The notes beneath the pieces were generated by a model. The model had not been told where the DNA came from, did no database searches, and saw nothing but the letters and a program-made list of their open reading frames with translations. From a virus, in IMG/VR virus record IMGVR_UViG_3300032293_001706, positions 64,001 through 128,000 of that record: DNA of 64,000 nt. The stretch is one strand, 5' to 3'. Position numbers and translations under genes: made by a program. Of this stretch, positions 16-5,460 are shown in pieces (position 1 is the stretch's first letter; each line of letters starts with the position of its first letter).

Positions 16-681
16 TTATTCTATATTAAAATTTATTTTTTTCCTTTCATTGTAAAGGCTCATATCATAATTAACATTTTGATAATTTATTTTGTGTATT
101 TCATCATGGTTATCAAAACCCCAATCAGGATGTTCATGTTTTATAATAGTCATTGGAAAATACGTTTGTTTCCTTAAAATGTCACCAACCACCATAAACT
201 CATTATCACACCAAGTTGATTTATATTCAGGATAATATATATATCCGAATCTTTGATAATATTTTTTACCTAAAATACACAATGTATTTAATTCATTACC
301 TTTAAACCCATCATTAAAAAATAAAATACCATCAGTATCAGGATAAGTTTTTTTCATTAAAGAATTAATTACTTTATCAAATCCCTTCACTTGTGGTATC
401 ATGTCATCGGAAGCCAATAAAATTATATCCCATTCTTCATTAACATCAATATCCCTATTAATTGCATCAACTTTAGACGTACTTGTACCAACTGTAATTT
501 TGGTGTTCTTAAAAGACCTTAAATAAGACAATGTTTCACTATTATTCATTGTTACATCATCTTCATCTATTGTTATTGAAAATTCAGTATTATCTTCAAT
601 AATAAAATCTTGATACTTTTTAAAAGTAGATAAAAATTTTTCTTTCCTTCCTCTTGTTGGAAACTTAATTAGTAATTTCAT
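16..681 (-). CDS. Glycosyltransferase, GT-A/GT2-like
   Basis: N-terminal LLIKFPTRGR strand, IDEDD and LASDDM (DxD-type) motifs, late HEHP motif; TATTTAT motif upstream (plus-strand ATAAATA at 691-697). Confidence 0.7.
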   Translation of the reverse strand: MKLLIKFPTRGRKEKFLSTFKKYQDFIIEDNTEFSITIDEDDVTMNNSETLSYLRSFKNTKITVGTSTSKVDAINRDIDVNEEWDIILLASDDMIPQVKGFDKVINSLMKKTYPDTDGILFFNDGFKGNELNTLCILGKKYYQRFGYIYYPEYKSTWCDNEFMVVGDILRKQTYFPMTIIKHEHPDWGFDNHDEIHKINYQNVNYDMSLYNERKKINFNIE

Positions 682-2305
682 TTATTACTGATAAATAATT
701 ATTTATGATTTTATCGGTTACATCAACTGAATAAAATTTATTAATGTCTTCGGGTGAATCAACTAAAGTTTTATTTAAAATATTCCCAACATTATCAACA
801 TCGTAAATCCAAGATTTTTTTCCACACATCCAACTTTCAATTGTTGTTCTACCTAACAATATTCCCGCAGTTTCTTTTGCTTCGGAGATATAATTTTCAG
901 TGTTCCAAGTAGGTGGAAATAATTTAACATGTGAATTACTTTTTAATTTATCAAGATAATTAGATTTGTTTTCACCAACTAACCAAAGTTCCATAGCATT
1001 TTCACGAGAATAATTAACCAAATCCATTATTGTTTGTTCTCTTAAATAATCTATTGTACCAACAAAAAGAATGTAATTTTTGCTTGGTTTACCCATTGGT
1101 TTAAATCTAGTTTCATCAACAGGATTGTATATTACTTCAACATTTTCTGGTTCTATATTATATGATGAACAAATAAATTCTTTAATTTCGGGTCTAATTG
1201 CTATATATTTTCTAATTGTTTCGTGTACTACGGGTTTCTCCAAATCAATAACTTCAGAATGAATTGTTGCAATTTTATCTTCTTTAGGATATAATTGTAG
1301 AATCAAATTTGTAACAGGTTCGTGTTGAACATGTATAATATCAAAATTTGGTTCGGAAATTTTGTATAACATTCCCTCTTTGGATTGTTCGGTTCCGTTT
1401 GGTGTTTGCATAGTCCATTTACCATCACCTCTTTTATATCCAGGAGGTTCTTGGAAGGAAAATACTTTTATCCCTTTCTTTTTTACCATATCAGTTAATG
1501 GACCTCCAATTTCTGATAGAACATTTACATTATGACCCAATTTAACCAAATTTTTCGCCAGTTCGTATATATAAACTTCTGAACCTGTAAAGGTTTTAAA
1601 GTTTAAACAAGATAACAATATGTTTAATTTATCTTCTTTGGTTTTTTTAATTTTAATAGGTAAGTTTTCTTTATTCTTTTCTGAAAACGAAATTCTATTT
1701 TTATCCCATTCTTCATTAACCATTCCTATTGATTTATGTGTAATTCTAACATCGTATATAACACCAATTTTAACATCCGCCAAATAGTTTCTAAAACAAA
1801 AATCAACATCATAAAAATGAAACCCATTAACTTCTAAATTAAAAGTTTCTTTAATTCTTGTCTTACTTAATGCGATAAAAAGACCGTCAACCAAAACGGT
1901 TTGTTGGATATCTTTACCTAAACTATTTGAATATTTTGATTCCCACTTTTTTCCTTCATGTTCGTGGTTAACAATTCCGAACATTTTTCTTCTGTCTTCC
2001 CACCACATTCCTGATTTTGGGAGATATGTTGAACCTGCAACACCCAAAATTCCATAATCACTTTTTTTGAAATGGTCCAATATTTTATTACCCCAACCAT
2101 TTTTCTCAAAATAAATATCATCGTGACATAACACGACAATATCATTTTCAGATTCATTTAAAATTTGGTTATAAACTTCAGTTAGAGAATACTCTCCATT
2201 ATTAACCTTTTCAATAATCTGAACTTTTGGATGTCCACAAGATTTTTTTAAATATTCTTGTAGAAGTGGATTATGAAATCTTGTACTATATCCTATTGTA
2301 ATCAT
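665..2305 (-). CDS. Two-domain glycosyltransferase (N-terminal GT2-like, C-terminal GT-B/GT4-like)
   Basis: N-half: VVLCHDDIYF, VDGLF, FHFYDVDFC. C-half: FTGSEVYIYELAKNLVKLGHNV, FDIIHVQH, VIYNPVDETRF, ILFVGT. Confidence 0.75.
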   Translation of the reverse strand: MITIGYSTRFHNPLLQEYLKKSCGHPKVQIIEKVNNGEYSLTEVYNQILNESENDIVVLCHDDIYFEKNGWGNKILDHFKKSDYGILGVAGSTYLPKSGMWWEDRRKMFGIVNHEHEGKKWESKYSNSLGKDIQQTVLVDGLFIALSKTRIKETFNLEVNGFHFYDVDFCFRNYLADVKIGVIYDVRITHKSIGMVNEEWDKNRISFSEKNKENLPIKIKKTKEDKLNILLSCLNFKTFTGSEVYIYELAKNLVKLGHNVNVLSEIGGPLTDMVKKKGIKVFSFQEPPGYKRGDGKWTMQTPNGTEQSKEGMLYKISEPNFDIIHVQHEPVTNLILQLYPKEDKIATIHSEVIDLEKPVVHETIRKYIAIRPEIKEFICSSYNIEPENVEVIYNPVDETRFKPMGKPSKNYILFVGTIDYLREQTIMDLVNYSRENAMELWLVGENKSNYLDKLKSNSHVKLFPPTWNTENYISEAKETAGILLGRTTIESWMCGKKSWIYDVDNVGNILNKTLVDSPEDINKFYSVDVTDKIINNYLSVINEITN

Positions 2306-2901
2306 TATATTCCTGTTGAACCGAAACCTTTATCTTTTCTATCTCTTTCTTCAATTTCCACAACTTCATGTAGATTAACCATTTTTCCATTATAAACAGG
2401 ACAAAGAACCCCTTGTGCAATTTTCATACCTTTTTTAATGGTATATGGTTTATTGTTTGTGTTAAACACAATAACCATAATCTCACCTGTATAACCCTCA
2501 TCAACGGTTCCCGGTGTATTTAAAACCGTTAATCCTTCCTTCAATGCCAGACCACTTTTTGGTCTTACTTGCATTTCACTTCCTTTTGGAAGTTCAAATT
2601 TCAATCCTGTTTTAACTAACGCTCTCCCAAATTCAGGTATGATAACTTCCTCGATTGAATGAAAGTCAAACCCTGAATCTGTTTCATAATTATATTTCGG
2701 AGTAACAGCATCAGGATGAATTTTAATATATTTTAATTCATGTTTATATCTGAAAAGTTCATCCGTTTGTTTATTCAAAAGTTCCTCATCAATACCCATT
2801 TGTTTCATCATTTCTTTCATTGATGAAAAATCAATATCATCAGTTTTTAAGTTTTTTAACTGTTTACTCATTTTCATTATATTTTTTATATCATTGAACA
2901 T
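2305..2901 (-). CDS. dut: Trimeric dUTPase with N-terminal extension
   Basis: All five motifs are visible: DSGFD, RPKSGLA, GTVDEGYTGEI, IAQGV, RKDKGFGSTG. Confidence 0.95.
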   Translation of the reverse strand: MFNDIKNIMKMSKQLKNLKTDDIDFSSMKEMMKQMGIDEELLNKQTDELFRYKHELKYIKIHPDAVTPKYNYETDSGFDFHSIEEVIIPEFGRALVKTGLKFELPKGSEMQVRPKSGLALKEGLTVLNTPGTVDEGYTGEIMVIVFNTNNKPYTIKKGMKIAQGVLCPVYNGKMVNLHEVVEIEERDRKDKGFGSTGI

Positions 2902-3601
2902 ATTCTAAAGTATCAAATTTGTTTATTAAATCTACCAAAACCCTAACATCTTGTTGACAGTATTCAGATATCTTATCCAAAATTCCCGCTTCCCAATAAG
3001 AAGAATGTACAATATTACCTGTTACTTCTCCTCCTTTTGAACTTTCACATCCCATTGCAACAGATATAAGTTCAAGTTGTGCGATAGAAAATTGGTTAAT
3101 ACCATTCCAAAATTCTTTTGTATCCAAAGCTTTAACCTCCCAAGGTTTTGTTTCAGAAGTTGGTAATATTCTTGCTGGTTGAAATCCGTTGATTACCATT
3201 CTTTTAAATAACATTGGAATGTCAAATCCTTTAATATTGTGTCCACACAATACGAAATCTAATTTTTGTATCTTATTTAGAAGTTTGATAACATTTCTCA
3301 ACAATTCCTTTTCATCGTCCATTGCATATGTTTGAGTTTGCATTTCACCTTTTTGATTAATAAAAGCAAAACTAGCCACAACAATTTTTGCAAATTCAGG
3401 AATCAATCCTGACCTTGAGATATAAACCTCTTCGGGTGTTTTTGACGAATCTTCAGGAAATCTTTTATGAAACCAATCTTGGTATTTCATAAAAACATTA
3501 TACATTTCTGGTTTATTTTTTTCAAGTTCAGATAATGTTGGAAATTCTCCAACGGTTTCTAAATCAAAAAATAGGAGTTTGGTTTTTGGATATGGTAGCA
3601 T
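2891..3601 (-). CDS. Stand-alone DEDDy 3'-5' exonuclease (PolB-exonuclease-like)
   Basis: ExoI FFDLET, ExoII GHNIKGFDIP, ExoIII YCQQDV. Confidence 0.85.
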   Translation of the reverse strand: MLPYPKTKLLFFDLETVGEFPTLSELEKNKPEMYNVFMKYQDWFHKRFPEDSSKTPEEVYISRSGLIPEFAKIVVASFAFINQKGEMQTQTYAMDDEKELLRNVIKLLNKIQKLDFVLCGHNIKGFDIPMLFKRMVINGFQPARILPTSETKPWEVKALDTKEFWNGINQFSIAQLELISVAMGCESSKGGEVTGNIVHSSYWEAGILDKISEYCQQDVRVLVDLINKFDTLEYVQ

Positions 3602-4848
3602 TATTTTAGTGTTTTATATAATTCAGCTCTATGTTTTGTTACAATATTTAAATCGTATTTGTCTTTTACAGTTTCGTATAATCTTTGACCTAAGTCGTAT
3701 GCCATATTTGGGTTTTGAATAAGTTTCTTCATTGCCTTTGCCCAATCAGAATGATTCCTTTTCTCATCAACCAAAATAGCATTACCATTAATAAAATTAC
3801 CATTTTCTAAGCAATGTTTCAAGTCCAAAGTATAAGGACCCAAATTCGATGCAATAATTGCCTTTTTATAAAACCCCGCTTCAATCACTTTCAGTTGTGA
3901 TTTTACTCTGTTAAAAATGTGGTTTACAATAGGAGCCAATGAAACATCAAACTTTGCATAGTTTTTAGCATATCCATTAATTGGTTCGGTCCATACCCTA
4001 TTATAGAATTCTTCACCGTTCCAAGATTCCTGTCTATACTTCAATAAATAATTTTTATATTCAGGTGAAGTGAATTCATAATTTTTGGTAAAAATTTCTT
4101 CGTATCTCGCCCAAACCGTTTCTTCGGGTCTAATAGGTCTTTGTTTTTCTTCACCTGTTTGTGCATTAATTTCAGTCATTGTTCCTCTAACATCAAAACC
4201 ACATAAGAAAAATTGCGACTTATTTCTTAAATCATTACCAAGTACATCTGTACATCCTTTTAAAAGGTTTAAGTCATGCAAATGTGATGAACCACCAAGC
4301 CAACCAAATCTCATTTTATCAGATGGTTCGGTTTTTGCATTAAATTGTGGTTCTTTCGGGTTAATTGCGTTAGGTAATACAAAAACATTTTTATTGTATT
4401 TTTTAATTTCATCAGCAAAAATCGGTGTTGTGGTTGTTACATATTTTGCAACTTTAAGATTTGCGATAATTTTTTCGTGGATTTTATGTTGAACAACCAA
4501 ATGGTGAACAGGGTGTTCTTTGGTTGGCAACCAATAATCATCCAAATCCATAACCGTTATAATTCCTAAACTATTTAAAATCTGAATCATTGTATTTGAT
4601 TTTTCATAATCAGGATTCAAACTTCTATGGAAGCAGACCATATCATATTTTGTCCAAAATGATATGTCATCCATATTTGGATTATAATCAATATCTACAT
4701 GGAAATCATCAGGATATTGATTTTGTAGCATTATGTGGGGGTCTAAAGAACGAAATTTTCCTTAACCTACCCCTGTACGGTCAGATGCGAGAACAAGTAT
4801 TCGAATCTTTTGACGACCATTCAGGGGCGAATCATTTTTTTGTGTCAT
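3601..4848 (-). CDS. GT-B (GT4-like) glycosyltransferase with an in-frame TAA at 4762-4764 (pseudogene or recoded)
   Basis: The ORF-track frame (ATG 4731) extends upstream to ATG 4848 as MTQKNDSPLNGRQKIRILVLASDRTGVG*GKFRSLDPHIMLQ. C-terminal GT4 motifs: FGWLGGSSH, FDVSLAP, KSQLKVIEAG, IIASNLGPY. Confidence 0.75.
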
Positions 4849-4953: not shown

Positions 4954-5460
4954 ATATTTATCTAAAATGAAAGAACTAATCAGAAAAATATTAAAAGAAG
5001 AAACCGAAGAAGTTCTTGAACTTCCATCAATCAAATATTTTCTTAATGATTGGAAATGGGTTATTAAATTTGTTAAAAGTGAAGGAAATCCATTATTTTC
5101 AATTCAAGAAAGTCTTATTTTAAGACACAATAGTCTAAAAACTCTTGGAAGATTATATTCAGTTGAAGGTAATTTGGATTTATATGGATGTAAAAACCTA
5201 ACATCTCTTGGAAAACTATCACATGTTGGGGAATGGTTGGATTTAAGAGGAACAAATATAACATCTCTTGGAAATTTAACACATGTCGGTGGAGGTTTGG
5301 ATTTATATGAATGTAAAAGCTTAACATCTCTTGGAAGACTACAACATGTTGGTGGTCTTTTGGATTTAAGAGATACACCAATGGCTAATGAATATTCCGA
5401 AGAAGAAATACGAAAAATGGTTAATGTTGAAGGAAATATTTATCTATAATGAAAGAACTA
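4954..5460 (+). repeat. 25-bp direct repeat pair flanking the LRR-like gene
   Basis: ATATTTATCTAAAATGAAAGAACTA at 4954-4978 and ATATTTATCTATAATGAAAGAACTA at 5436-5460; one mismatch. Confidence 0.9.
4967..5449 (+). CDS. LRR-like tandem-repeat protein with MKELIRKILKEE leader
   Basis: Four alternating 21/20-aa units of type TSLGxLxxVGGxLDL; DNA repeat AACATCTCTTGGAA at 5200, 5260 and 5323. Confidence 0.8.
   Translation: MKELIRKILKEETEEVLELPSIKYFLNDWKWVIKFVKSEGNPLFSIQESLILRHNSLKTLGRLYSVEGNLDLYGCKNLTSLGKLSHVGEWLDLRGTNITSLGNLTHVGGGLDLYECKSLTSLGRLQHVGGLLDLRDTPMANEYSEEEIRKMVNVEGNIYL

What the first reader, a model, noticed from the sequence alone, without database searches (positions are those of the whole stretch)
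4729..4848. Glycosyltransferase interrupted by GGT-TAA-GGA: candidate ribosomal stop-hop or 6-bp scar
Seen: from ATG 4848 the frame reads KIRILVLASDRTGVG*GKFRSLDPHIM, with TAA at 4762-4764 between two Gly codons. The DNA is GT-AGG-TTA-AGG-AAAA, i.e. an AGG duplication plus TTA. Deleting exactly 6 nt gives DRTGVGKFR, matching the DxxGxGx(F/Y)R opening I recall for such phage GTs. The downstream ATG 4731 would lose the first Rossmann strand. Known: matched-codon hopping over a stop occurs (T4 gene 60 uses GGA take-off and landing; short stop-hops are documented in E. coli). Inference: programmed bypass giving low-level GT, an excision footprint, or an on/off allele. A 6-nt insertion is not a typical sequencing error.
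Basis: partly seen in the sequence, partly recalled or inferred. Interest (0 to 1): 0.72.

Follow-up and report, generated by a model that had tools for sequence, protein, structure and literature searches.

The report
Ribosome stop-hop site in phage glycosyltransferase
A sugar-transferase gene of an uncultured 190-kb phage carries a stop codon plus three extra bases left by a selfish endonuclease cassette, and about 30 diverged versions of this break in other phages indicate that ribosomes hop over it, a short natural counterpart of the phage T4 gene 60 bypass that no experiment has yet confirmed.

Summary
On the minus strand the GT-B glycosyltransferase gene (ATG 4848, stop 3601) has TAA at 4764-4762 between GGT and GGA, a 6-nt insert in an otherwise indel-free SD(R/K)(T/S)GVGKFRS motif. 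It is not an artefact: the same allele occurs in three other assemblies.

It is not a dead gene. Against one of these assemblies the gene body differs by 16 synonymous changes and one nonsynonymous change.

I found 30 distinct alleles in other uncultured phages. In each a stop follows the G/S codon, 2-10 further bases come next, and then a second Gly/Ser codon. Hop lengths are 5 to 13 nt, many out of frame, and the frame after the second codon is open wherever the locus reaches the gene's end.

All alleles have a new N-terminal extension that pairs with the codons just before the take-off codon, forming a hairpin with compensatory changes. Most lie directly behind a homing-endonuclease gene; this window has lost it.

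Best reading: a peptidyl-tRNA hop, mobile like T4 MobA/gene 60 but with a different nuclease, target gene and gap length. The 2016 review and 2022 preprint I read report no natural stop-hop. This scan has already reported the same system on other genomes. Nothing has been shown at the bench.

The parts
3601..4848 (-). Whole glycosyltransferase gene (GT-B fold, GT4-like): 28 codons, a stop plus landing codon, then 385 codons and the stop TAA at 3603-3601
   Evidence: Pfam Glyco_trans_1_4 is weak and phrog_7162 glycosyltransferase scores E 5e-46. An AlphaFold model of the intact homologue P0006 (pLDDT 88) matches GlgM, MshA, PglA and BshA.
4810..4848 (-). Cassette-derived N-terminal extension (13 codons, MTQKNDSPLNGRQ). 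It is absent from intact relatives, which start MSKIK
   Evidence: the N-terminal piece is 26-29 aa in carriers against 17-19 aa (one of 22) in intact genes.
4765..4809 (-). Cassette-borne copy of the gene's first strand and Gly loop ('HomR', KIRILVLASDRTGVG)
   Evidence: it is 82-89% identical to the same piece in carriers of another GT clade (L084, L085, L079, L081, L082) but 58-64% to the nearest intact relatives; pN/pS 0.26 with pS 0.67.
4769..4828 (-). 5' hairpin: the arm GCCCCTGAATGGTC (4828-4815) pairs with GACCGTACAGGGGT (4782-4769). The 3' arm ends 1 nt before the take-off codon starts, 4 nt before it ends
4765..4767 (-). Take-off codon GGT (Gly28)
4762..4764 (-). In-frame stop TAA, the A-site codon at take-off
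   Evidence: A stop sits here in 30 of 30 alleles.
4759..4761 (-). Landing codon GGA. Decoding would resume at AAA 4758-4756
4740..4767 (-). Weak second hairpin whose 5' arm holds the take-off, stop and landing codons
   Evidence: part of the minimum-energy fold; stability is higher than in intact genes, but covariation is inconclusive.
4729..4758 (-). About 30 nt after the landing codon that still look donor-derived (GAC CCC CAC ATA ATG, as in the other GT clade). This stretch includes the ATG 4731 that gene callers use as the start
4967..5449 (+). 160-aa ORF on the opposite strand occupying the place where relatives carry the homing endonuclease gene
   Evidence: no Pfam or PHROG family, two paralogues elsewhere in the genome, and no endonuclease remnant upstream of the GT.

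Best explanation
The TAA-GGA insert is the coding gap of a short programmed translational bypass. Ribosomes translate the 28-codon N-terminal piece and pause with peptidyl-tRNA-Gly on GGT (4767-4765) and the stop TAA in the A site. The mRNA then slides 6 nt, the same tRNA re-pairs with GGA (4761-4759), and decoding resumes at AAA. The product is ...SDRTGVG-KFRS..., identical in length to the intact family.

The gap came in with a mobile cassette consisting of a homing endonuclease gene, a new N-terminal extension, a cassette-borne copy of the first 15 or so GT codons, and the stop-containing gap. By analogy with T4 MobA/gene 60, the gap breaks the endonuclease's target in the conserved GVG|KFR coding sequence without adding residues to a loop that tolerates no indel.

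The extension supplies the 5' arm of a hairpin whose 3' arm abuts the take-off codon. Refolding of this hairpin behind the ribosome is the likely driver of the forward slide. In this window the endonuclease gene has since been lost, while the extension, hairpin, stop and landing codon remain.

Shown: the anatomy, its conservation, selection on the gene, the covarying hairpin, and the association with the endonuclease gene. Inferred: the hop itself, its efficiency, the hairpin's role, and the endonuclease's cleavage site and immunity.
For: (1) The insert is real and shared: identical in L001/L002 and L003.

(2) Selection acts with the gap in place. Window against L001, same allele: 16 synonymous and 1 nonsynonymous (R242K) codon changes, dN/dS 0.014. 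The same-allele pairs L082/L087 and L109/L164 give 0.044 and 0.040, like the intact pairs at 0.03-0.04.

(3) There are 30 distinct alleles in 51 loci. The codon after the take-off codon is always a stop (TAA 15, TGA 13, TAG 2). Hop lengths are 5, 6, 7, 8, 9, 10, 11, 12 and 13 nt. The landing codon encodes the same residue as the take-off codon in 29 of 30 (Gly/Gly or Ser AGY/AGC). The frame after landing is open for 385-402 codons (768-777 where an intein-like insert is present), or to the locus end in three truncated loci.

(4) A pattern that demands only the extension, not the stop, gave 13 metagenome stretches. All 12 that reach the site have a stop after GVG.

(5) Both sides are selected as protein: the cassette-borne copy has pN/pS 0.26 (intact 0.25) and the 14 codons after landing 0.36 (intact 0.27).

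(6) 5' hairpin: the carriers' N-terminal piece folds at a mean of -29.2 kcal/mol, median z -4.5, against -10.7 and z -0.4 for intact genes. Own extension against own 3' arm gives -17.7 kcal/mol, against -12.2 for foreign ones (30 of 31 better than the median foreign one). A covariance model hits 47 of the 51 carrier loci at E <= 0.01 and the other four at E 0.013-0.1; among the 80 intact GT-relative loci searched at E <= 1 none scores better than E 0.25. 10 of 20 pairs show compensatory changes (shuffles 6.0; 5/500) and 33 cells show double changes (shuffles 10.5; 0/500).

(7) Cassette and mobility: the endonuclease gene lies directly upstream in most carriers and in 0 of 72 intact GT relatives. 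On the GT tree carriers are interspersed with intact genes, needing at least 14 gains or losses. The window is a mosaic.

(8) The genome (one 190,552-nt contig) encodes only tRNA-Leu(TAA) and no suppressor.

(9) In the model of the intact enzyme the gap falls at the N-cap of helix 1, right after strand 1 and the Gly loop.

(10) Literature: the MobA element has the same layout of endonuclease, extension, homologous region and bypass (bioRxiv 10.1101/2022.08.31.505936). Synthetic stop-hops with matched codons flanking a stop are known, and short natural counterparts were long expected (PMC5009743). Pairing of mRNA exiting the ribosome has been proposed as the driver of forward bypassing (bioRxiv 10.1101/2024.12.09.627546).
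Against: There is no protein, reporter or ribosome-profiling data, and all evidence is comparative.

In this window the gap is in frame, so readthrough is not excluded for this allele taken alone. The landing codon GGA is synonymous with the take-off GGT but not identical to it, giving a wobble mismatch for a GCC anticodon.

Matched flanking codons could partly reflect duplication by descent rather than selection for re-pairing. One allele (L135, AGT to GGC) is unmatched.

Each gap class could in principle use a different standard event: readthrough for 0 mod 3, +1 frameshift for 1 mod 3, -1 frameshift for 2 mod 3. No stop blocks those frames in the short gaps.

A related endonuclease group sits upstream of intact GT genes without any gap, so the gap is not the only route to coexistence.

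The covariation count was made on an alignment fitted to the structure. The second, downstream hairpin has only weak covariation.

An earlier check of the same claim on other DNA is flagged in the scan notes as 'part of it fell', without saying which part.
Confidence: 0.75

Rival explanations
1. Stop-codon readthrough: a near-cognate tRNA decodes TAA, giving TGVG-X-GKFR with two extra residues in the loop.
For: The window's gap is a multiple of three, as it is in 22 of the 30 alleles. The result G-X-G-KFR would still resemble the G-V-G-KFR motif.
Against: Eight alleles have gaps that are not multiples of three (5, 7, 8, 10, 11, 13 nt), and one has two stops in the gap, yet all keep the full downstream frame. 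All three stop codons are used. No suppressor tRNA is in the genome. The roughly 200 homologues inspected show no indel in this loop. A stimulatory hairpin upstream of the site, rather than downstream, is not what readthrough signals look like.
Confidence: 0.07
2. Bypass without tRNA re-pairing, or a mix of standard frameshifts: the ribosome skips the gap and decodes the second Gly codon afresh (product TGVGGKFR), or different alleles use +1 frameshift, -1 frameshift or readthrough.
For: No stop blocks the +1 or -1 frames inside the short gaps (my reading of the gaps listed). The sequence data cannot tell a P-site hop from A-site decoding of the second codon.
Against: This needs three mechanisms where one suffices. 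There is no slippery heptamer, and a Gly or Ser tRNA has no +1 re-pairing site at GGC-T or AGC-T. It leaves unexplained why the codon before K/Y-F-R is Gly or Ser like the take-off codon in 29 of 30 alleles. Every product would carry 1-4 extra residues in an indel-free loop.
Confidence: 0.1
3. Null allele or pseudogene: the insert inactivates the enzyme and the phage does without it.
For: Gene callers annotate only the 376-aa ORF from ATG 4731 (P0002, P0003). The endonuclease gene has already been lost here, which fits decay.
Against: 16 synonymous against 1 nonsynonymous change versus L001, with the same gap. dN/dS is 0.04 in two other same-allele pairs. The 385-codon frame is intact, as it is in about 30 diverged alleles. 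The piece upstream of the stop is selected as protein. Some carriers also hold an in-frame LAGLIDADG insert, which only persists in genes that are used.
Confidence: 0.04
4. Two products or an N-terminally truncated enzyme: translation restarts after the stop (at ATG 4731 here), and the 376-aa protein works alone or together with the 28-aa peptide.
For: An in-frame ATG lies 9 codons after the resume codon in the window and in 12 other alleles (8 codons in one more).
Against: In the other 16 alleles the first in-frame ATG is 28 to 286 codons downstream. The codons between the landing codon and that ATG are conserved as protein. No start codon lies in or next to any gap. The truncated protein would lack strand 1, the Gly loop and most of helix 1. 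ATG 4731 itself looks like donor-derived sequence.
Confidence: 0.04

Closest known systems
Phage T4 gene 60 coding gap within the MobA homing-endonuclease element (Huang 1988 and Bonocora 2011 as cited in bioRxiv 10.1101/2022.08.31.505936, Manning & Atkins)
   Same: The layout is the same: an endonuclease gene, then a new N-terminal extension that overlaps or abuts its 3' end, then a cassette-borne copy of about 15 codons of the target gene, then an untranslated gap. The take-off codon is Gly and is followed at once by a stop, and a matched landing codon lies just before the resume codon. An upstream stem-loop is present. The element is scattered among close relatives with and without it, and decayed forms exist that have lost the endonuclease but kept the gap.
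   Different: The gap is 2-10 nt (hop of 5-13 nt) rather than 50 nt. The target is the 5' end of a glycosyltransferase, not topoisomerase II, and the gene is not split in two. The endonuclease has a resolvase-like HTH, an I-TevI-type zinc finger and NUMOD3 motif, and a weakly Vsr-like nuclease, not the HNH of MobA. The dominant signal is a 5' hairpin that abuts the take-off codon. There is no evidence for a nascent-peptide signal (extension pN/pS about 1) or for an internal Shine-Dalgarno. Nothing has been tested experimentally.
Synthetic 'stop-hops' in E. coli (Weiss et al. 1987, as described in PMC5009743)
   Same: [quoted passage not shown] The window's GGT-TAA-GGA has exactly this form.
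   Different: Those hops are engineered and inefficient. The review states that no natural in-frame stop-hop is known. Here the site is natural, conserved, under selection, and accompanied by a hairpin.
Mitochondrial bypass elements (byps) of Magnusiomyces capitatus (as described in bioRxiv 10.1101/2022.08.31.505936)
   Same: Short mobile inserts in essential coding sequences that are bypassed during translation, with matched take-off and landing codons.
   Different: Byps are 27-55 nt, spread like GC clusters without an endonuclease gene, use an unassigned sense codon instead of a stop, and occur in yeast mitochondria.
prfB (RF2) +1 programmed frameshift
   Same: A stop codon in the A site acts as the pause, and a G-rich tract lies a few nucleotides upstream of the shift codon (from my own knowledge of prfB).
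   Different: In this system the G-run is one arm of a hairpin. When GGG changes to GGA or GGC, the partner in the extension changes with it. The shift is to a non-overlapping codon and varies from 5 to 13 nt.

Membership tests
Programmed translational bypassing (gene 60 kind) | Take-off and landing codons matched for the same peptidyl-tRNA | tested here: met
   29 of 30 alleles have the same amino acid on both sides (Gly/Gly or Ser AGY/AGC), and 13 of the 30 pairs are the identical codon. The window's pair is GGT/GGA, synonymous but not identical. One allele (L135, AGT/GGC) is unmatched.
Programmed translational bypassing (gene 60 kind) | Slow-to-decode codon (a stop) in the A site at take-off | tested here: met
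   30 of 30 alleles: TAA 15, TGA 13, TAG 2. In the window it is TAA 4764-4762.
Programmed translational bypassing (gene 60 kind) | Frame-independent gap: decoding resumes in any frame right after the landing codon | tested here: met
   Hop lengths are 5-13 nt, 8 alleles are out of frame, and the whole downstream ORF is open in the landing frame. The window's own gap is in frame, so this is met for the family and not by the window alone.
Programmed translational bypassing (gene 60 kind) | mRNA structure at or before the take-off site | tested here: met
   The 5' hairpin ends 1-4 nt before the end of the take-off codon, shows compensatory changes, and is specific to carriers. A gene-60-like take-off stem-loop downstream is inconclusive.
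Programmed translational bypassing (gene 60 kind) | Nascent-peptide signal in the exit tunnel | tested here: inconclusive
   The extension lengthens the nascent chain to 26-29 aa, but its pN/pS is about 1 across subfamilies. Its conservation looks RNA-level.
Programmed translational bypassing (gene 60 kind) | One polypeptide made from the two ORFs | not testable with these tools
   This needs mass spectrometry or a reporter. It is only inferred from selection on both sides.
MobA mobile element of T4-like phages | HNH endonuclease MobA | tested here: not met
   The endonuclease in relatives matches NUMOD3 (above the Pfam cut-off in L078 and L082), the I-TevI zinc finger region (1i3j, E 6e-4), a resolvase-like HTH, and weakly Vsr/MTES_1575 nucleases. 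No HNH domain appears in Pfam; PHROGs gives a second-ranked match to a family labelled 'HNH endonuclease' (phrog_559). The window holds no copy.
MobA mobile element of T4-like phages | Inserted in the topoisomerase II large-subunit gene, splitting it | tested here: not met
   The target is the 5' end of a GT4-like glycosyltransferase, and the gene is not split into two working ORFs.
Free-standing homing endonuclease cassette | Patchy distribution among close relatives, and a mosaic recipient gene | tested here: met
   At least 14 gains or losses on the GT tree. The window's 5' piece is 82-89% identical to carriers of another clade but 58-64% to its nearest intact relatives. Relics of the original 5' end lie upstream of the endonuclease gene in L141/142, L147/148, L156-158 and L163.
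Free-standing homing endonuclease cassette | The endonuclease cuts the uninterrupted target, and the gap protects the carrier | not testable with these tools
   Inferred from the T4 MobA analogy and from the relics' break points, which lie 0-2 codons after the G/S codon.
GT-B fold, GT4-like glycosyltransferase | Two Rossmann-like domains with a Gly-rich loop between strand 1 and helix 1 | tested here: met
   The AlphaFold model of the intact homologue has pLDDT 88. Foldseek gives GlgM, MshA, PglA, BshA and PimB' at E 1e-10 to 1e-12. Pfam PF13692 scores 22.5 bits, below its cut-off of 27, on the window's protein.
Stop-codon readthrough | Downstream ORF in the same frame as the upstream ORF | tested here: not met
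   Met by the window alone, but not by 8 of 30 alleles of the same element.

The most novel reading that the evidence does not exclude
This is one member of a natural family of very short (5-13 nt) programmed translational bypass sites that arose independently of T4 gene 60. They travel with a Vsr-like/NUMOD3 homing endonuclease and are driven mainly by a hairpin that refolds behind the ribosome and pulls the mRNA forward until the retained peptidyl-tRNA finds the next Gly or Ser codon. If so, it supplies the long-expected natural 'stop-hop' and a minimal, naturally varied system for studying how ribosomes slide.
Probability: 0.7. Interest if true: 0.9.

Novelty: new variant of a known kind. 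Interest (0 to 1): 0.85.

Why it matters
According to the literature I could read, programmed bypassing in bacteria and phages rests on one element family, T4 gene 60/MobA. A 2016 review says no natural in-frame stop-hop is known (PMC5009743), and the 2022 preprint calls the bypass cassette unique.

A second, unrelated family with gaps of only 2-10 nt, dozens of natural variants and a covarying hairpin would have three consequences:
- It would give a minimal system for testing what makes a ribosome let go and re-pair.
- It would show that homing endonucleases have more than once solved the problem of disrupting their own target without changing the protein by exploiting ribosome sliding.
- It would warn annotators that 'truncated' genes next to such endonucleases may be whole. 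This gene is currently called as a 376-aa fragment.

For this phage it means that the first gene of its glycosylation cluster is probably active.

Tried and rejected
- Assembly artefact: rejected. The insert is identical in three other assemblies.
- Genome-wide stop reassignment or a phage suppressor tRNA: rejected. The window is densely coded under table 11, and the 190-kb contig has only tRNA-Leu(TAA).
- DNA similarity to cultured phages: none. The best protein match in the phage collection is 35% identical, in an uncultured megaphage, and the rest are about 26%. No isolate is available.
- Remnant of the endonuclease gene upstream of the window's GT: none. tblastn found nothing, and local alignment scores fall within shuffled scores.
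- Shine-Dalgarno-like AGGGG as the stimulator (my first idea, from prfB): GGG at that codon is enriched in carriers, 28/35 against 7/61. It is better explained as one arm of the hairpin, since GGA and GGC variants have compensating partners.
- Downstream 'take-off' stem-loop GGGGU...ACCCC: more stable in carriers than in intact genes, but only one covarying pair and a score reached by 24 of 500 shuffles. I leave it as inconclusive.
- RNAalifold on an ungapped alignment gave no structure, because the 5' arms are out of register between subfamilies. MAFFT did not fix the register. I used a covariance model instead.
- The extension as a conserved nascent peptide: pN/pS is about 1, so there is no support.
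- I could not learn which part of the earlier checked claim 'fell'.
Full report
**Observation.** On the minus strand an ORF opens at ATG 4848-4846 and reads 28 codons ending ...SDRTGVG. It is interrupted by TAA at 4764-4762. The frame then continues as G-KFRSLDPHIM... for 386 further codons to the stop at 3603-3601. The codons around the stop are GGG GTA GGT TAA GGA AAA TTT. The 113 full-length proteins among the 120 best homologues (of more than 7,900) and 72 of 72 IMG/VR relatives read SD(R/K)(T/S)GVGKFRS, a few with one substitution, and have no indel. The closest intact genes have GGT AAA at this point. The same letters occur in L001/L002 and in L003, which come from other samples and assemblies.

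**Context.** The window is bases 64001-128000 of a single 190,552-nt contig with 30% G+C. It encodes a tail sheath, a baseplate wedge protein, a B-family DNA polymerase, a DnaB-like helicase and ribonucleotide reductase, so it is a large uncultured myovirus. No cultured phage has a close homologue of the enzyme. The enzyme has a GT-B fold and is GT4-like. In the model of the intact homologue, strand 1 is residues 4-9, the Gly loop 10-15, and helix 1 starts at 16. The insert therefore sits at the N-cap of helix 1.

**The break is not private.** Two relatives about 84% identical in protein carry a stop at the same point with different letters. L078 has GGT TAA GGC. L077 has GGC TAG AAA GGC, which is 9 nt. 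Pattern and protein searches in IMG/VR and in metagenomes raised this to 51 loci and 30 distinct alleles.

In every allele the codon after the G/S codon is a stop (TAA 15, TGA 13, TAG 2). The distance to the next Gly/Ser codon is 5 nt (2 alleles), 6 (18), 7 (1), 8 (2), 9 (2), 10 (1), 11 (1), 12 (2) or 13 (1). That second codon encodes the same residue as the first in 29 of 30 alleles. The frame that starts right after it reads K/Y-F-R-S and stays open for the whole enzyme, or to the locus end in three truncated loci. Eight alleles need a change of frame, and one has two stops in its gap.

A search that demanded only the new N-terminal extension found 13 metagenome stretches. All 12 that reach the site have the stop.

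**The gene is in use.** The window and L001 share the allele, yet their gene bodies differ at 17 codons, 16 of them synonymous (dN/dS 0.014). Two other same-allele pairs give 0.044 and 0.040, like intact pairs. The 15 codons before the stop have pN/pS 0.26 at saturated pS, the same as in intact genes, and the 14 codons after the landing codon have 0.36.

The first in-frame ATG after the gap lies anywhere from 8 to 286 codons downstream, so restart is not a conserved solution. The genome has no suppressor tRNA.

**The cassette.** In L077, L078 and most other carriers a 298-317-aa ORF lies directly upstream, ending at or overlapping the GT start. It has a resolvase-like HTH, an I-TevI-type zinc finger with NUMOD3, and a C-terminal nuclease that is weakly Vsr-like. 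PHROGs calls it a homing endonuclease.

Carriers also share a new N-terminal extension, so the N-terminal piece is 26-29 aa against 17-19 aa (one of 22) in intact genes. None of 72 intact GT relatives has the endonuclease gene.

On a tree of the enzyme, carriers are interspersed with intact genes, which requires at least 14 gains or losses. The window is a mosaic. Its first 15 conserved codons are 82-89% identical to those of carriers in another enzyme clade (L084, L085, L079, L081, L082) but only 58-64% to its nearest intact relatives. The donor-like stretch runs about 30 nt past the landing codon and includes ATG 4731.

In L141/142, L147/148, L156-158 and L163 a relic of the original 5' end lies upstream of the endonuclease gene. 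It is cut 0-2 codons after the G/S codon, which marks the insertion point.

In the window the endonuclease gene is gone without trace. A 160-aa ORF on the other strand, with two paralogues elsewhere in the genome, takes its place. L087 keeps a 33-54-aa remnant of the endonuclease.

**The hairpin.** The extension is complementary to the last codons before the take-off codon. In the window GCCCCTGAATGGTC (4828-4815) pairs with GACCGTACAGGGGT (4782-4769); the 3' arm ends 1 nt before the take-off codon starts, 4 nt before it ends.

Every allele has such a helix of 9-26 pairs (in L084 it lies just inside a 2-pair outer helix) ending 1-4 nt before the end of the take-off codon. Changes on one arm are matched on the other: GGA with TCC, GGC with GCC, GTG-AG with CT-CAC, GTC-AG with CT-GAC.

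- Carriers fold at a mean of -29.2 kcal/mol (median z -4.5), against -10.7 (z -0.4) for the same span of intact genes.
- Own-arm duplexes average -17.7 kcal/mol against -12.2 for foreign arms.
- A covariance model built from nine sequences finds 47 of the 51 carrier loci at E <= 0.01, the other four at E 0.013-0.1, and none of the 80 intact GT-relative loci better than E 0.25; the intact loci that lie behind the related endonuclease group give no match at E <= 0.01.
- On its alignment 10 of 20 pairs have compensatory changes (shuffles 6.0; 5/500), and 33 cells have double changes (shuffles 10.5; 0/500).

That alignment is fitted to the structure, so the count leans towards it. A second, downstream hairpin that holds the take-off, stop and landing codons in its 5' arm is more stable than in intact genes but has weak covariation. 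I treat it as unproven.

**Mechanism.** One event explains all alleles. Peptidyl-tRNA pauses on the Gly or Ser codon with a stop in the A site, the mRNA slides, the same tRNA re-pairs at the next matching codon, and decoding resumes. The product has the family's exact length.

Readthrough, +1 frameshifting and -1 frameshifting could each explain one gap class. They would need three mechanisms, would leave the matched codons unexplained, and would add 1-4 residues to an indel-free loop.

The upstream position of the hairpin fits the idea, proposed for gene 60, that pairing of mRNA leaving the ribosome drives forward movement. At take-off the 3' arm is inside the ribosome and the 5' arm is outside. 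A slide of 5-13 nt would free about as many bases to pair. This step is inference. So is the idea that the gap protects the carrier from its own endonuclease, which rests on the MobA precedent.

**Comparison with what is known.** The layout matches the MobA element described by Manning and Atkins almost part for part: an endonuclease, an extension overlapping its 3' end, a cassette-borne homologous region, a gap, patchy distribution, and decayed copies that keep the gap. It is not a member of that family. The nuclease is not HNH, the target is not topoisomerase, the gene is not split, and the gap is 2-10 nt rather than 50.

The window's GGT-TAA-GGA has the form of the synthetic stop-hops of Weiss et al. 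The 2016 review says no natural in-frame stop-hop is known. My four literature searches found no report of this system.

**Earlier notes of this scan.** At least eight follow-ups on other genomes reached the same reading. One carries the remark that a check of the same claim on other DNA made 'part of it fall', without detail. I therefore tested each element here and I separate what is shown from what is inferred.

**Verdict.** The stop-hop reading is supported by strong comparative evidence but by no experiment. This window holds an orphan copy: the endonuclease is lost, while the extension, hairpin, stop and landing codon are intact and the enzyme gene is under selection.

Noticed in passing
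window 4967-5449 (+): The 160-aa ORF that replaces the endonuclease gene has no Pfam or PHROG family. It has two paralogues (61% and 47% identity) side by side elsewhere in the same genome (contig bases 24804-26074, outside the window). It looks like a small multi-copy gene cassette.
   Followed up: partly
L134, L141, L142, L147, L148, L156-L158, L163 (e.g. L147:1445-3772): In one clade of relatives the same glycosyltransferase also carries an in-frame insert of about 370 aa with a LAGLIDADG domain near residue 175-183. This is probably an intein with its own homing endonuclease, so the gene is a hot spot for selfish elements.
   Followed up: partly
L141/L142 about 2351, L147 about 358, L148 about 2377, L156-L158 about 2422, L163 about 2421: A relic of the original 5' end of the gene (M...SDRTGV(G/S), then 0-2 codons, then unrelated sequence) lies upstream of the endonuclease gene. 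This marks where the cassette went in.
   Followed up: partly
L126-L133, L137, L138, L140, L143, L145, L149-L151, L153, L155, L159-L162, L165, L169: A related group of endonuclease genes (mostly 36-48% identical to the L077 one; L165 and L169 match only its C-terminal part, at 52-54%) sits directly upstream of intact glycosyltransferase genes that have a normal MSK start, no extension, no hairpin and no gap. How these avoid cutting their own genome is open.
   Followed up: no
L135:3381-3460: This is the only allele whose flanking codons do not match (AGT TAA GGC). A G-U pair at the first codon position could still allow re-pairing of a Ser tRNA, or this copy may work differently or be decaying.
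   Followed up: no
genome contig C1:9745-9830 (outside the window): The 190-kb contig encodes a single tRNA, tRNA-Leu with anticodon TAA.
   Followed up: no
window 665-3601 (-): Directly downstream of the glycosyltransferase lie a PolB-type 3'-5' exonuclease-like gene, a dUTPase and a two-domain GT2+GT4 glycosyltransferase, all abutting or overlapping. The same order is kept in relatives.
   Followed up: no
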